Made by a program: the position numbers and the translations under genes. The notes beneath the pieces are model-generated. The model ran no database searches. It was not told the DNA's origin and was given only the letters and a program-made list of their open reading frames with translations. A DNA stretch of 64,000 nt, from assembly GCA_009914755.4 (NCBI GenBank), contig CP086569.2, positions 32,896,001 through 32,960,000 on the forward strand. The letters are read 5' to 3'. Source of the stretch: the human T2T-CHM13v2.0 reference genome, Homo sapiens. Position 1 is the stretch's first letter; each line of letters opens with the position of its first letter. This document shows, in pieces, positions 1 to 64,000 of the stretch.

Positions 1-831
1 ATATATATGGTATACAATATATATTTTATGATATGTATCCTATATGTTTTATATTCTGTTATATATAACTATTTGAAATTATATATAACTGTATAATATT
101 TTATGTAAATATGTAATATAATATATATAACTATATAATATATTATATATAACTATATATTATGTTATATATACTTTTATAACATAATTTACATAAAATA
201 TCATAATATAATATATATTATATTATTTCATATTACATAATATATATTACATATCACCCAATATAACTAACATACATAATATTATAATATAGATTATATT
301 GTGTTATATTAAATATCATATATATCTTGTATCATATATTCTATAATATATATTACACATTATATAATATGTATGTTGTCTATTATGTGATATATATAAC
401 TATATATATAATTATATTTTTATACATATAACTAGATAAACATGTAATTCTACATATTTTCATTTATAATATGTAGAATTATATAATCATATATAATTAT
501 TTATATTCTATAAAAAATTTTATCATTATATAAATTATAATATATAAAAATTATAATATGTACTACAAATATATATATTATATATCATATATGATATAGT
601 ACCTTTGTTATATATCACAATACATATAAATGTGTATTATGTTATCTATAATTATATAATTTCATATATAAGATGTATAATATGTATCTTATATTATATA
701 AGTTATGTAATATATATAGTATATATAAGATGACACAGGATAAATATTATATACTATGACATATAAAATATATGAGGTTATATGTTACATATAAGGCATA
801 GCACATAACATGTAATATATATCATATATAA
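1..831. repeat. Partial unit U0: 3' part of an AT-rich block, A-type tail (ataagatgacacagg)
   Basis: Collinear with the AT-rich tails of later units, for example 2411-3240. Ends at the poly-T of the first Alu. Confidence 0.85.
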
Positions 832-1126
832 TTTTTTTTTAGACAGAATCTTGTCCTGTTGCACATGGTGGGGTACAATGGCGCCATCTTTGCTCACTGC
901 AACTTCTGCCTCACGGGTCCAAGCGATTGTCCTCCCTCAGCCTCCCAGGTAGCTGGGACTACACCACACTGGGACTACACCAGCTGCCACCATGCCTAGC
1001 TAATTTTTTGGATTTTTAGTAGTGACAGCGTTTCACTGTATTGGCCAGGATGGTCTTGATCTCTTCACCTTGTGATCCCCTTGCCTTGGCCTCCAAATTT
1101 GCTGGGATTACAGGCCTGAGCCAAGA
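832..1126 (-). mobile_element. Alu SINE, AluY-like, 5'-truncated; ancestral copy amplified with the satellite unit
   Basis: A T9 run at 832-840 is the poly-A tail on the minus strand. The reverse complement reads ggctcaggcctgtaatcccagcaaatttggaggccaagg..., and ccaggatggtcttgatctc is the AluY-type GATGGTCT/GATCTC signature. Many former CpG sites read TG or CA. Confidence 0.9.
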
Positions 1127-1700
1127 TCCATATTTTGTAAATGAAAAAAAATTTCAAAGGTACTCTGCTTGGTACAATAATCAAATGTATAAACTGAGGA
1201 ATAAAACATAACCATGAAACCTACTTATAACTGCATATGGAAAATACAGAGGATAATTTTTTAAATAACATATTTTGAAAGCCTTAACTAGTAATTTGAA
1301 GAGTTGGCATTTGAAAGGCCAGTATGAATATACCTTCAAAGCAGCAACACAGGTTCCCCATGAGAAAAAGCAAACACAGGGAAAATAAAAACACAAAGGT
1401 TCAATCTCTTCTGACCTTTGAAAGACACAGCACAGACAGTGGTCCTTAGGACGAAGAGCAGGAGACCCCTAATTCCGTCACCATGGCGATAGGGCATAAA
1501 CATTGCTGGGTGAGGGCACAATCCACATTGTGAGGTCCAACTGCTGCCAGGAAGACAGGAGTGCTTTTACATAGACCGAAAGGTCATTGAAGGCTCAGAG
1601 TTTTGTTTCAAGAACTGAATCCCAAGCCCACACGTTATTAGGCTGCGCTTCTTAAAACAAGTTATGAGATGGGAAAAAGGGCACCCACAAACATACGTAT
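1127..1700. other. Unit-internal ~575 bp unique, unclassified segment of moderate GC content, between the Alu 5' end and the AT block. Representative of all units.
   Basis: It is not low-complexity and retains CpGs (acgtta, gcgctt, ccgtcac, gacgaag, gaccgaaag). It carries the spurious 61-aa and 71-aa ORFs. No recognisable protein or RNA gene signature. Confidence 0.7.
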
Positions 1701-3240
1701 ACATTATGTATAAAATAATATACAGTGTCATATATATAATATATATAACCTAGGTATAATATTGTTTTACATCCTGCATCTTATGTTATTTATATTGTAT
1801 AAAATATAATAATAGATAATATATAAGTTTTATAATTATACAATATGACATATAGTATATATTATAATTTATGACATATAAAATATATGTTATATATCAT
1901 ATATAGAATATATTATACGGTTAATATACGTATTAAATATAAATTATACATTATATATATTATATATAATATATCTGTTATATATAATACCCATTATGCA
2001 TAATATATATATTATGTCTATGTTATATATAGTATAAAACAACATATAATAATATATAATTGTATATATAAAATGCGACATATAATATATATTATATTTT
2101 ATAACATATGTAATATATATTATATATAATACGTTGTATGTATAATACCTATATTAAATATATATTATATGACTATGTTATTAATTACATGTCACATGTG
2201 TTATATATTATATATTTTACATAGAATATACCGGTTACATACAATATATACTATGTTACCTATAATGTATAATTTATTACATGTAAAATAAAGAATGCAA
2301 TATATTATGTATAATTTATAATATACAATATGTGGAATGTGATACATATAACATATAATATATGATATATGATATACAGTACATGATATATAACATACAA
2401 TATATGATTCCTAATATATATGGTATACAATATATATTTTATGATATGTATCCTATATGTTTTATATTCTGTTATATATAACTATTTGAAATTATATATA
2501 ACTGTATAATATTTTATGTAAATATGTAATATAATATATATAACTATATAATATATTATATATAACTATATATTATGTTATATATACTTTTATAACATAA
2601 TTTACATAAAATATCATAATATAATATATATTATATTATTTCATATTACATAATATATATTACATATCACCCAATATAACTAACATACATAATATTATAA
2701 TATAGATTATATTGTGTTATATTAAATATCATATATATCATGTATCATATATTCTATAATATATATTACACATTATATAATATGTATGTTGTCTATTATG
2801 TGATATATATAACTATATATATAATTATATTTTTTACATATAACTAGATAAACATGTAATTCTACATATTTTCATTTATAATATGTAGAATTATATAATC
2901 ATATATAATTATTTATATTGTATAAAAAATTTTATCATTATATAAATTATAATATATAAAAATTATATGTACTACAAATATATATATTATATATCATATA
3001 TGATATAGTACCTTTGTTATATATCATAATACATATAAATGTGTATTATGTTATCTATAATTATATAATTTCATATATAAGATGTATAATATGTATCATA
3101 TATTATATATGTTATGTAATATATATAGTATATATAAGATGACACAGGATAAATATTATATACTATGACATATAAAATATATGAGGTTATATGTTACATA
3201 TAAGGCATAGCACATATCATGTAATATATATCATATATAA
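1701..3240. repeat. Unit-internal AT-rich low-complexity block, ~1.5 kb and ~85-90% A+T. Representative of all units.
   Basis: Degenerate repeats of tatataactata, atatgatatat and (ta)n. The rare G/C islands are conserved across units, for example accggttacatacaat, aaaatgcgacatataat and tacggttaatatacgtatt. Confidence 0.85.
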
Positions 3241-61259: not shown

Positions 61260-61554
61260 TTTTTTTTTAGACAGAATCTTGTCCTGTTGCACAGGGTGGG
61301 GTACAATGGCGCCATCTTTGCTCACTGCAACTTCTGCCTCACGGGTCCAAGCGATTGTCCTCCCTCAGCCTCCCAGGTAGCTGGGACTACGCCACACTGG
61401 GACTACACCAGCTGCCACCATGCCTAGCTAATTTTTTGGATTTTTAGTAGTGACAGCGTTTCACTGTATTGGCCAGGATGGTCTTGATCTCTTCACCTTG
61501 TGATCCCCTTGCCTTGGCCTCCAAATTTGCTGGGATTACAGGCCTGAGCCAAGA
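61260..61554 (-). mobile_element. Alu (unit copy), C variant
   Basis: Collinear with the other copies. Confidence 0.9.
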
Positions 61555-63672
61555 TCCATATTTTTTAAATGAAAAAAAATTTCAAAGGTACTCTGCTTGG
61601 TACAATAATCAAATGTATAAACTGAGGAATAAAACATAACCATGAAACCTACTTATAACTGCATATGGAAAATACAGAGGATAATTTTTTAAATAACATA
61701 GTTTGAAAGCCTTAACTAGTAATTTGAAGAGTTGGCATTTGAAAGGCCAGTATGAATATACCTTCAAAGCAGCAACACAGGTTCCCCATGAGAAAAAGCA
61801 AACACAGGGAAAATAAAAACACAAAGGTTCAATCTCTTCTGACCTTTGAAAGACACAGCACAGACAGTGGTCCTTAGGACGAAGAGCAGGAGACCCCTAA
61901 TTCCGTCACCATGGCGATAGGGCATAAACATTGCTGGGTGAGGGCACAATCCACATTGTGAGGTCCAACTGCTGCCAGGAAGACAGGAGTGCTTTTACAT
62001 AGACCGAAAGGTCATTGAAGGCTCAGAGTTTTGTTTCAAGAACTGAATCCCAAGCCCACACGTTATTAGGCTGCGCTTCTTAAAACAAGTTATGAGATGG
62101 GAAAAAGGGCACCCACAAACATACGTATACATTATGTATATAATAATATACAGTGTCATATATATAATATATATAACCTATGTATAATATTGTTTTACAT
62201 CCTGCATCTTATGTTATATATATTGTATAAAATATAATAATTCATAATATATAAGTTTTATAATTATACAATATGACATATAGTATATATTATAATTTAT
62301 GACATATATAATATATGTTATATATCATATATAGAATATATTATACGGTTAATATACGTATTAAATATAAATTATACATTATATATATTATATATAATAT
62401 ATCTGTTATATATAATACTCATTATGCATAATATATATATTATGTCTATGTTATATATAGTATAAAACAACATATAATAATATATAATTGTATATATAAA
62501 ATGCGACATATAATATATATTATATTTTATAACATATGTAATATATATTATATATAATACGTTGTATGTATAATACCTATATTAAATATATATTATATGA
62601 CTATGTTATTAATTACATGTCACATGTGTTATATATTATATATTTTACAAAGAATATACCGGTTACATACAATATATACTATGTTACCTATAATGTATAA
62701 TTTATTACATGTAAAATAAAGAATGCAATATATTATGTAAAATTTATAATATACAATATGTGGAATGTGATATATATAACATATAATATATGATATATGA
62801 TATACAGTATATGATATATAACATACAATATATGATTCCTAATATATATGGTATACAATATATATTTTATGATATGTATACTATATGTTTTATATTCTGT
62901 TATATATAACTATTTGAAATTATATATAACTGTATAATATTTTATGTAAATATGTAATATAATATATATAACAATATAATATATTATATATAACTATATA
63001 TTATGTTATATATACTTTTATAACATAATTTACATAAAATATCATAATATAATATATATTATATTATTTCATATTACATAATATATATTACATATCACCC
63101 AATATAACTAACATACATAATATTATAATATAGATTATATTATGTTATATTAAATATCATATATATCATGTATCATATATTCTATAATATATATTACACA
63201 TTATATAATATGTATGATGTCTATTATGTGATATATATAACTATATATATAATTATATTTTTATACATATAACTAGATAAACATGTAATTCTACATATTT
63301 TCATTTATAATATGTAGAATTATATAATCATATATAATTATTTATATTCTATAAAAAATTTTATCATTATATAAATTATAATATATAAAAATTATAATAT
63401 ATACTACAAATATATATATTATATATCATATATGATATAGTACCTTTGTTATATATCATAATACATATAAATGTGTATTATGTTATCTATAATTATATAA
63501 TTTCATATATAAGATGTATAATATGTATCATATATTATATATGTTATGTAATATATATAGTATATATATGATGACACATGATAAATATTATATACTATGA
63601 CATATAAAATATATGAGGTTATATGTTACATATAAGGCATAGCACATAACATGTAATATATATCATATATAA
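61260..63672. repeat. Unit U26 (2413 bp), class C/A mixed
   Basis: Has gggactacgccac and the tail atatgatgacacatgat, but aaaaacacaaagg and cacccacaaac. Confidence 0.8.
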
Positions 63673-63967
63673 TTTTTTTTTAGACAGAATCTTGTCCTGT
63701 TGCACAGGGTGGGGTACAATGGCGCCATCTTTGCTCACTGCAACTTCTGCCTCACGGGTCCAAGCGATTGTCCTCCCGCAGCCTCCCAGGTAGCTGGGAC
63801 TACGCCACACTGGGACTACACCAGCTGCCACCATGCCTAGCTAATTTTTTGGATTTTTAGTAGTGACAGCGTTTCACTGTATTGGCCAGGATGGTCTTGA
63901 TCTCTTCACCTTGTGATCCCCTTGCCTTGGCCTCCAAATTTGCTGGGATTACAGGCCTGAGCCAAGA
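63673..63967 (-). mobile_element. Alu (copy 27) at the start of partial unit U27; the window ends 33 bp later
   Basis: T9 at 63673-63681. Variants cctcccgcagcc and gggactacgccac. Confidence 0.9.
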
Positions 63968-64000
63968 TCCATATTTTTTAAATGAAAAAAAATTTCAAAG

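What the first reader, a model, noticed from the sequence alone, without database searches (positions are those of the whole stretch)
1..64000. Window is a homogeneous 2.4 kb Alu-containing, AT-rich macrosatellite, probably human DYZ2/HSat1B from Yq12 heterochromatin
About 26.5 tandem units have periods of 2409-2421 bp and appear to differ by roughly 1-3% (estimated by eye, not computed). Each unit is a minus-strand AluY-like element, followed by ~575 bp of unclassified sequence, then ~1.5 kb that is about 88% A+T. This architecture matches what is described for DYZ2 (HSat1B) in the Yq12 heterochromatin: a ~2.4 kb unit with an Alu-derived part and an extremely AT-rich part. If correct, the window is satellite DNA and not a gene-bearing accessory region. 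That explains the absence of credible genes here.
Basis: partly seen in the sequence, partly recalled or inferred. Interest (0 to 1): 0.5.

Follow-up and report, generated by a model that had tools for sequence, protein, structure and literature searches.

The report
Human DYZ2 (HSat1B) satellite array
The whole 64 kb window is an uninterrupted array of the long-known human 2.4 kb satellite DYZ2 (HSat1B), which makes up much of the Y-chromosome long-arm heterochromatin; it is ordinary, non-coding repeat DNA.

Summary
The window holds 26 complete and 2 partial head-to-tail units of 2,409-2,422 bp, most often 2,420 bp. Mean pairwise identity is 98.1% (divergence 0.2-2.9%).

Each unit has three parts:
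- a minus-strand, 5'-truncated Alu of about 291 bp, about 82% identical to Alu consensus sequences;
- a 567 bp part with 39% GC;
- about 1.54 kb with 86% A+T.

These values match those published for Yq12 DYZ2/HSat1B: 2,420 bp median unit, Alu about 290 bp and about 20% diverged, HSATI part about 566 bp, 24% GC, 1 CpG per 150 bp, and the heptamer ACATACG at the HSATI/AT-rich junction.

Independent copies were recovered as short contaminant contigs in 15 unrelated bacterial assemblies and in metagenomes. The T2T-Y paper reports exactly this contamination for HSat1B. These copies are 98.4-99.6% identical to the window consensus. One of them is a collapsed circle of exactly 2,420 bp, and every window unit is more than 98% identical to it.

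There is no conserved ORF. Family membership is near certain. A Yq12 origin, as opposed to an acrocentric short arm, is probable (about 85-90%) but could not be shown without a human reference. The feature is already known and of low interest.

The parts
1..64000 (-). Uninterrupted tandem array of the 2.4 kb DYZ2/HSat1B unit: 26 full units plus 2 partial units, running off both ends of the window. Strand is given as that of the Alu.
   Evidence: 20-mer distance modes are 2,413 and 2,420 bp. The end fragments are 98.5-98.7% identical to the consensus.
832..1123 (-). Alu-derived part of the first full unit. It is 5'-truncated at Alu position 13, has its A-tail as a T-run at 832-840, and carries a ~15 nt internal duplication. 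It recurs once per unit.
   Evidence: A sub-threshold Rfam mir-1268 hit (an Alu-derived family) falls at 936-1002 on the minus strand. Published: 290 bp, 5'-truncated, about 20% diverged.
1124..1690 (.). GC-richer part of the first unit: 567 bp, 39% GC.
   Evidence: Composition and lowest pairwise divergence of the three parts (1.2%) are. Published HSATI portion is 566 bp, SD 16. An invariant 28-mer from this part was recovered in 15 bacterial assemblies.
1691..1697 (+). Heptamer ACATACG at the junction between the HSATI part and the AT-rich part.
   Evidence: Read at 1691-1697 in the first unit. One search displayed this junction for 20 of the 26 units: 19 carry ACATACG and u21 reads ACATAGG. 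The other 6 units were not displayed because the search anchor did not match them exactly. Hallast et al. name this same heptamer at this same junction.
1698..3240 (.). AT-rich part of the first unit: about 1.54 kb, 85.8% A+T. It is built of degenerate TA-rich short motifs and contains an ancient ~230 bp x 1.9 sub-repeat. Nearly all length variation between units lies here.
   Evidence: The indel list, including the TATATAT indel that separates 2,413 from 2,420 bp units, is. There are many imperfect inverted repeats. Published: more than 85% AT.
54024..63675 (-). Four consecutive units (u23-u26), all exactly 2,413 bp and only 0.2-0.6% apart. This is a recently amplified block of the shorter variant.
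   Evidence: Identity matrix and unit lengths; indel table.
12925..27427 (-). Units u6-u8 and u9-u11 are most similar three units apart (0.9%, 1.2% and 1.7%, against an array mean of 1.9%). This suggests a three-unit (~7.25 kb) duplication.
   Evidence: Identity matrix. Secondary 20-mer distance peaks occur at 7,248-7,257 bp. Suggestive only.

Best explanation
The window lies inside one array of the human composite satellite DYZ2 (HSat1B), most probably within the Yq12 heterochromatin of a Y chromosome. The unit arose once, when a 5'-truncated Alu, a ~570 bp unique-looking segment (HSATI) and a TA-rich low-complexity tract were joined, and it was then amplified in tandem. It encodes nothing.

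The array 'works' only as constitutive heterochromatin. It evolves by unequal sister-chromatid exchange or replication slippage and by intra-array gene conversion. These processes keep copies about 98% alike, spread variants to neighbouring units, and produce local bursts of near-identical units. TA-microsatellite slippage causes the small length differences between units.

Shown here: the array, its three-part unit, its homogeneity, the agreement with published DYZ2 measurements, near-identity to independent copies, and the lack of coding potential.

Inferred: the turnover mechanism (from the pattern of similarity), human origin (from the contaminant pattern) and Y linkage (from abundance and class membership).
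For: Structure:
- Period modes are 2,413 and 2,420 bp, with 26 full units.
- Mean identity is 98.07%.
- The three parts measure about 291, 567 and 1,543 bp, with 51%, 39% and 14% GC.

Match to published Yq12 DYZ2 (window against published):
- Unit length: modal 2,420 bp against median 2,420 bp.
- Alu: about 291 bp, truncated at position 13, 82% identity, against 290 bp, 5'-truncated, about 20% diverged.
- HSATI part: 567 bp against 566 bp (SD 16).
- GC: 24.4% against 24%.
- CpG: 1 per 145 bp against 1 per 150 bp.
- ACATACG sits at the HSATI/AT-rich junction in both.
- The AT-rich part is more than 85% AT in both.
(Published values; window values.)

Independent copies:
- An invariant 28-mer occurs in 15 unrelated bacterial assemblies on contigs of 0.6-2.5 kb, and the Alu/HSATI junction 29-mer occurs in 30 metagenome stretches.
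- These copies are 98.4-99.6% identical to the window consensus.
- Seven of them share an identical 862 bp core that differs from window unit u21 by one base.
- L001 is a collapsed circle of exactly 2,420 bp, and all 26 window units are 0.46-1.94% from it. The published figure is that the vast majority of Yq12 units are more than 98% identical to the consensus.
- The T2T-Y paper reports HSat1B as a main source of human contamination in bacterial RefSeq.

Y assignment:
- The chr13 HSat1B interval in CHM13 is 45.8 kb, smaller than the window.
- 96.2% of Yq12 units are antisense, as in this window.

Turnover:
- Identity falls with distance between units, from 98.5% for neighbours to 97.9% five units apart.
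- There are blocks of near-identical neighbours and a similarity peak three units apart.
- 108 of 332 variant alleles are shared between units.

No coding potential: the longest ORF in the unit examined (u3) is 63 aa, and only two ORFs of 75 aa or more exist in the 64 kb, each in a single unit.

In-silico HaeIII digestion gives a 2.14-2.15 kb main fragment, which matches the classical 2.1 kb male HaeIII band. That definition is from my memory of Cooke 1976.
Against: - No human reference, Dfam/RepeatMasker library or DYZ2 consensus sequence was available. The match to DYZ2 therefore rests on published measurements, one published heptamer and the behaviour of independent copies, not on a direct alignment to chrY.
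- The window does not reach an array edge, so the defining Yq12 alternation with DYZ1 could not be seen.
- Only 10 of 26 units are exactly 2,420 bp, whereas Hallast et al. give 93.7% by their HMM-based measure. Their first, annotation-based measure gave 46.8% at the modal length.
- The contaminant contigs carry no label of origin. That they are human, and mostly Y-derived, is an inference.
Confidence: 0.86

Rival explanations
1. The same satellite family (HSat1B), but the window comes from one of the smaller arrays on a human acrocentric short arm (chr13, 14, 15, 21 or 22) or on chr10, not from Yq12.
For: HSat1B arrays exist on all acrocentric short arms and on chr10. On chr15 HSat1B lies next to HSat3, so even a DYZ1-like neighbour would not be decisive. 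Nothing in the window is Y-specific by itself.
Against: - The amounts outside the Y are small: 'almost entirely on the Y', with FISH signal only at Yq12.
- The chr13 interval used as the reference HSat1B target is 45.8 kb, shorter than the window.
- Y copies form a single highly homogenised cluster, while the acrocentric copies are described as local, separately homogenised derivatives that resemble the peripheral Y arrays.
- All 26 window units are more than 98% identical to the dominant consensus seen in random contaminants, and some are 1 base in 862 from it.
- Truly diverged copies (2.6-11% in the core) do exist in metagenomes, and the window is not of that kind.
Confidence: 0.1
2. An orthologous HSat1B-type array from a non-human great ape genome.
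For: An 'HSat1B' class is annotated in the ape T2T genomes. The Alu part is old, about 18-20% diverged, so the unit could predate the human lineage.
Against: - Copies in 15 unrelated bacterial assemblies are 98.4-99.6% identical to the window consensus. Laboratory and host contamination of that kind is overwhelmingly human, and it is documented for human HSat1B.
- The unit length, part lengths, GC and CpG density all equal the human Yq12 values.
- The satellite expansions reported on ape Y chromosomes involve HSat1A, not HSat1B.
Confidence: 0.03
3. A different AT-rich satellite, such as HSat1A/SAR, or a previously undescribed Alu-containing macrosatellite that merely resembles DYZ2.
For: Only the general AT-richness and the 'satellite I' density class are shared with HSat1A.
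Against: HSat1A is a 42 bp repeat. Here the period is 2.4 kb, and TRF finds no 42 bp array, only 2.3 copies of a 42 bp motif at 69% match. Coincidental agreement with DYZ2 in unit length to the base, in the lengths of all three parts, in GC, in CpG density and in the junction heptamer is implausible.
Confidence: 0.01

Closest known systems
DYZ2 / HSat1B (RepeatMasker 'HSATI' composite), human Yq12; described by Cooke 1976 and Frommer et al. 1984 (both from memory) and at base resolution by Rhie et al. 2023 and Hallast et al. 2023
   Same: Unit length (mode 2,420 bp); three-part make-up and the length of each part; 5'-truncated Alu about 20% diverged; 24% GC; CpG density; ACATACG junction; more than 98% identity of units to the consensus; antisense orientation; length variation confined to the AT-rich tract; local homogenisation gradient.
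   Different: Nothing of substance. In this window only 38% of units are exactly 2,420 bp, and a 2,413 bp variant (a TATATAT deletion) forms a local block. The 2,413 bp figure in Hallast et al. has a different cause: a 7 nt gap in their annotation.
HSat1B arrays on the acrocentric short arms (chr13/14/15/21/22) and chr10
   Same: Same composite unit and family.
   Different: These arrays are published as small, separately homogenised and closer to the peripheral Yq12 copies, with low allelic identity on chr15 and chr21. The window's units belong to the dominant consensus class.
HSat1A (SAR), the other 'satellite I' family
   Same: Extreme AT-richness; classical satellite I density fraction.
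   Different: HSat1A is a 42 bp simple tandem repeat with no Alu and no 2.4 kb period. That is not what is here.
DYZ1 (HSat3A6), the partner satellite of Yq12
   Same: Kilobase-scale nested tandem unit; alternates with DYZ2 arrays on Yq12.
   Different: DYZ1 has a ~3.5 kb unit built of (CATTC)n pentamers with 38% GC. It is absent from the window. It was seen only next to a DYZ2-type array in metagenome locus L031.

Membership tests
DYZ2 / HSat1B | Tandem unit of about 2.4 kb, with a median of 2,420 bp | tested here: met
   26 units of 2,409-2,422 bp with a mode of 2,420 bp; 20-mer distance modes at 2,413 and 2,420 bp. Published value. An independent collapsed contig is exactly 2,420 bp.
DYZ2 / HSat1B | Three-part unit: a 5'-truncated Alu (~290 bp, ~20% diverged), an HSATI segment (~566 bp) and an AT-rich tract of more than 85% AT | tested here: met
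   Alu is about 291 bp, starts at Alu position 13 and is 82% identical. The GC-richer part is 567 bp. The AT-rich part is 85.8% A+T. Published values.
DYZ2 / HSat1B | Overall 24% GC and about 1 CpG per 150 bp | tested here: met
   24.4% GC and 1 CpG per 145 bp. Published values.
DYZ2 / HSat1B | Heptamer ACATACG between the HSATI segment and the AT-rich tract | tested here: met
   At 1691-1697 in the first unit. Of the 20 units whose junction was displayed, 19 carry it and u21 reads ACATAGG; 6 units were not displayed. Published.
DYZ2 / HSat1B | Units more than 98% identical to the family consensus | tested here: met
   All 26 units are 0.46-1.94% from L001, an independent collapsed copy used as a proxy for the consensus. 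The published consensus itself was not available.
DYZ2 / HSat1B | Sequence match to the Dfam/Repbase HSATI model or to the published 2,420 bp DYZ2 consensus | not testable with these tools
   No RepeatMasker or Dfam library, no human reference, and no printed consensus in the papers or supplements held.
DYZ2 / HSat1B | Classical definition: HaeIII releases a ~2.1 kb fragment per unit (definition recalled from memory, Cooke 1976) | tested here: met
   Four GGCC sites per unit; the main fragment is 2,138-2,147 bp. No citable statement of the definition was found in the library.
Yq12 location (Y linkage) | Array alternates with DYZ1 (HSat3A6) arrays; male-specific abundance; colinear placement on chrY | not testable with these tools
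   The window ends inside the array on both sides and no human assembly could be searched. Indirect support comes only from abundance, orientation, array size and consensus class.
AluY subfamily (for the Alu part) | Closer to the AluY consensus than to the AluS or AluJ consensus at diagnostic positions | tested here: inconclusive
Hallast et al. also say an AluS origin cannot be excluded.
HSat1A (SAR) | Tandem repeat with a 42 bp unit | tested here: not met
   There is no 42 bp array. TRF on the consensus unit finds only 2.3 copies of a 42 bp motif at 69% match. The period is 2.4 kb.

The most novel reading that the evidence does not exclude
The 64 kb array is not on the Y but is an autosomal (acrocentric or chr10) HSat1B array whose units are indistinguishable from the dominant Y consensus class. 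That would imply a very recent transfer or ongoing exchange of satellite sequence between Yq12 and an acrocentric short arm.
Probability: 0.06. Interest if true: 0.35.

Novelty: already known. Interest (0 to 1): 0.07.

Why it matters
Scientifically it matters little. DYZ2 has been known since the 1970s-80s and was resolved to the base in 2023.

The practical value is in triage. The window can be set aside as non-coding human satellite DNA. If it was drawn from a microbial or metagenomic collection, it is human contamination and not an accessory element. The same repeat was found on short contigs in 15 bacterial genome assemblies, and in one case it was scaffolded into a bacterial chromosome.

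Tried and rejected
- TRF on the window cannot see the 2.4 kb period because its limit is 500 bp. It reported only a 230 bp sub-repeat in 6 units, so periodicity was measured by script instead.
- Rfam gave no SRP/Alu-type hit above threshold, only a sub-threshold mir-1268 match on the Alu.
- I first expected the 2,413 and 2,420 bp units to differ by the published 'ACATACG'. They do not: that heptamer was seen in 19 of the 20 units whose junction was displayed, 2,413 bp units included, and the difference is a TATATAT indel in the AT-rich tract. The published 2,413 bp figure reflects an annotation gap, so that comparison was dropped.
- Searches for printed DYZ2 primer, probe or consensus sequences failed. 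Most 'dyz2' hits were DOI strings, and the two relevant papers give no sequences.
- Flanks of the independent copies were checked for DYZ1. One locus (L031) shows GGAAT-rich HSat3 next to the repeat, but chr15 has the same adjacency, so this does not discriminate. The other flanks are chimeric or bacterial.
- I found no published total for acrocentric HSat1B, only one 45.8 kb chr13 interval.
- Inverted repeats are numerous but imperfect (70-87%), and this is not clearly more than a TA-rich sequence would give. I drew no conclusion from them.
- Protein-level tools were not used, because no ORF is conserved between units.

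
Full report
**1. The observation**

The GC profile repeats every ~2.4 kb: about 50%, then about 30-50%, then 10-17%. TRF cannot see this period because its limit is 500 bp, and it reported only a 230 bp sub-repeat. I therefore measured the distances between successive identical 20-mers. The modes are 2,413 bp (12,125 pairs) and 2,420 bp (10,478 pairs), with harmonics near 4.83 and 7.25 kb.

Anchoring on the Alu tail gives 27 unit starts from 835 to 63676. 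These define 26 full units of 2,409-2,422 bp: ten are exactly 2,420 bp and five are exactly 2,413 bp. The two end fragments, 1-834 and 63676-64000, are 98.7% and 98.5% identical to the consensus. The whole window is therefore one uninterrupted array of about 26.5 units.

In a MAFFT alignment of the 26 units, mean pairwise substitution identity is 98.07% (range 97.1-99.8%).

**2. Anatomy of a unit**

Coordinates are for the first unit, 832-3240.

- **832-1123, minus strand: an Alu.** Its A-tail appears as the T-run at 832-840. It is truncated at Alu position 13 and carries a ~15 nt internal duplication. It is 82.4% identical to AluY, 82.7% to AluSx and 78.7% to AluJo. A sub-threshold Rfam hit to the Alu-derived mir-1268 family lies on it.
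- **1124-1690: a 567 bp part with 39% GC.** This is the least variable part of the unit, with 1.2% pairwise divergence.
- **1691-1697: the heptamer ACATACG**.
- **1698-3240: about 1.54 kb with 85.8% A+T.** It consists of degenerate TA-rich short motifs and an old ~230 bp x 1.9 sub-repeat. It contains many imperfect inverted repeats.

Almost all length variation between units lies in the T-run and the AT-rich tract. A TATATAT indel separates the 2,413 bp units from the 2,420 bp units.

The longest ORF in the unit examined (u3, 5666-8085) is 63 aa. In the whole 64 kb only two ORFs reach 75 aa (80 and 109 aa), and each occurs in a single unit. Nothing coding is conserved between copies.

**3. Identification**

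Two T2T-era preprints describe DYZ2/HSat1B in measurable terms.

[quoted passage not shown] The vast majority of units are more than 98% identical to the consensus. T2T-Y carries 14 Mb of this repeat.
[quoted passage not shown] They give a median unit of 2,420 bp, an Alu of 290 bp (SD 2), an HSATI part of 566 bp (SD 16), 24% GC, 1 CpG per 150 bp, and the heptamer ACATACG at the HSATI/AT-rich junction.

The window gives a mode of 2,420 bp, an Alu of about 291 bp, a 567 bp GC-richer part, 24.4% GC, 1 CpG per 145 bp, and ACATACG at that junction.

One trap needs noting. The 2,413 bp figure in Hallast et al. comes from a 7 nt gap in their annotation. The 2,413 bp units in this window come from a real TATATAT deletion. 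The two figures should not be equated.

In-silico HaeIII digestion gives a 2.14-2.15 kb main fragment per unit. This fits the classical 2.1 kb male HaeIII band, a definition I recall from memory and could not cite from the library.

**4. Independent sequences**

Rhie et al. report that HSat1B is a main source of human contamination in bacterial RefSeq, mostly on contigs shorter than 1 kb. I used that as a prediction.

- An invariant 28-mer from the HSATI part occurs in 15 taxonomically unrelated bacterial assemblies, including Mycobacterium, Bifidobacterium, Streptomyces, Alcanivorax, Chromatium and Azospirillum. Fourteen of the matches are on contigs of 0.6-2.5 kb.
- The Alu/HSATI junction 29-mer occurs in 30 metagenome stretches.
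- Thirteen of the 15 bacterial-assembly copies are 98.4-99.6% identical to the window consensus over their full length; the other two, L005 and L014, are 97.9% (over 1,024 bp) and 96.8%. L001 and L004 align without a single gap.
- Over the 862 bp Alu+HSATI core, seven independent contigs are identical to one another and differ from window unit u21 by one base.
- L001 has identical first and last 77 nt, so it is a collapsed circle of exactly 2,420 bp. All 26 window units are 0.46-1.94% from it, meaning more than 98% identical.

The window therefore belongs to the dominant, homogeneous class of this repeat. Truly diverged copies also exist in metagenomes, for example 11% in L032 and 2.6-3.8% in L022, L033, L037 and L039. 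The window is not of that kind.

**5. Chromosome and species**

[quoted passage not shown] Smaller amounts occur on the acrocentric short arms and chr10, and the FISH signal is seen only at Yq12. Y copies form a single homogenised cluster. Acrocentric copies are described as derived, locally homogenised, and closer to the peripheral Yq12 arrays.

The chr13 HSat1B interval used as a reference target is 45.8 kb, shorter than this window. Yq12 DYZ2 arrays average 354 kb. In Yq12, 96.2% of units are antisense, as they are here if the window is read in reference orientation.

All of this favours Yq12, at roughly 85-90%, but it is indirect. The window reaches no array edge and no human reference could be searched.

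Human origin is inferred from the contaminant pattern and from the exact agreement with the human measurements. The satellite expansions reported on ape Y chromosomes involve HSat1A rather than HSat1B, although an HSat1B class is annotated in the ape T2T genomes.

**6. How it works**

This is non-coding constitutive heterochromatin. The literature reports hypermethylation of DYZ2 arrays and evolution by unequal exchange, including sister-chromatid exchanges in Yq12.

The window shows the expected footprints:

- Identity falls with distance between units, from 98.5% for neighbours to 97.9% five units apart.
- Two unit types occur in blocks. One type comprises u1, u12-13 and u19-26, and is close to the population consensus. 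The other comprises u2-11 and u14-18.
- A terminal run of four 2,413 bp units differs by only 0.2-0.6%.
- Units u6-8 and u9-11 are most similar three units apart, which suggests a 7.25 kb duplication.
- 108 of 332 variant alleles are shared between units.
- CpG is depleted (observed/expected 0.45), and the variant spectrum is rich in transversions (ts/tv 0.72).

The turnover mechanism is inferred from these patterns. It was not observed directly.

**7. Verdict**

The feature is already known and of low scientific interest. The practical message is that this window, and the matching short contigs in bacterial and metagenomic assemblies, are human satellite DNA.

Noticed in passing
L005:5897-6920 (NZ_HF570958.1, Nostocoides japonicum T1-X7, 5.16 Mb scaffold): A 1,024 bp piece of this human satellite (97.9% identical to the window consensus) sits inside a bacterial chromosome-scale scaffold, between 69%-GC bacterial DNA and an N-run. 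It is a contaminant contig that was scaffolded into the genome.
   Followed up: partly
L001-L015 (15 GTDB species-representative assemblies): Short contigs (0.6-2.5 kb) of this repeat occur in taxonomically unrelated bacterial assemblies. L001 (Mycobacterium sp., 2,497 bp) has identical 77 nt ends, so it is a collapsed circle of exactly 2,420 bp. Seven independent contigs share an identical 862 bp core.
   Followed up: yes
window:54024-63675: Four consecutive units are all exactly 2,413 bp and only 0.2-0.6% apart, which indicates a recent local amplification. The 2,413 and 2,420 bp variants differ by a TATATAT indel in the AT-rich tract.
   Followed up: yes
window:12925-27427: Units are most similar three units apart (u6/u9 0.9%, u7/u10 1.2%, u8/u11 1.7%, against a mean of 1.9%). 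Together with 20-mer distance peaks near 7.25 kb, this suggests a three-unit duplication.
   Followed up: partly
window, all units (alignment of 26 units): Variant alleles relative to the consensus are rich in transversions (139 transitions against 193 transversions, ts/tv 0.72). Only 7 are CpG-to-TpG/CpA changes, and 224 of the 332 are singletons. Whether this reflects AT-rich mutational bias or assembly error was not examined.
   Followed up: no
window:6620-7050 and the equivalent position in every unit (consensus 954-1384): An old ~230 bp sub-repeat (1.9 copies, 77% match) lies inside the AT-rich tract. At the score cut-off used, TRF reported it in only 6 of the 26 units.
   Followed up: partly
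window:936-1002 (-), and once per unit: The Alu part carries a ~15 nt internal duplication (GTAGTCCCAG...GTAGTCCCAG). A sub-threshold Rfam mir-1268 match (33.9 bits against a gathering score of 83) lies over it. mir-1268 is an Alu-derived family, so this is not a miRNA gene.
   Followed up: yes
L016, L017, L023, L026, L029-L031, L043-L045 (BNJT01002008.1 and BNJU01004413.1, ~54 kb metagenome contigs): Two long, indel-rich metagenome contigs are themselves arrays of this repeat. In L031 the repeat abuts 4.4 kb of GGAAT-rich HSat3-type satellite (6.3 pentamers per 100 bp), which is a DYZ1/DYZ2-type or chr15-type junction.
   Followed up: partly
L032, L037:4173-5032, L033, L039, L022: Metagenome copies are diverged by 2.6-11% in the Alu+HSATI core with few indels, and L037 shows a 2,401 bp spacing. 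They are probably peripheral Yq12 or acrocentric HSat1B variants, but they were not assigned.
   Followed up: no
window:34911-35240 (-): A 109 aa ORF spans the Alu/HSATI junction in one unit only (u15). It is closed by stop codons in the other 25 units, so it is a chance ORF.
   Followed up: yes
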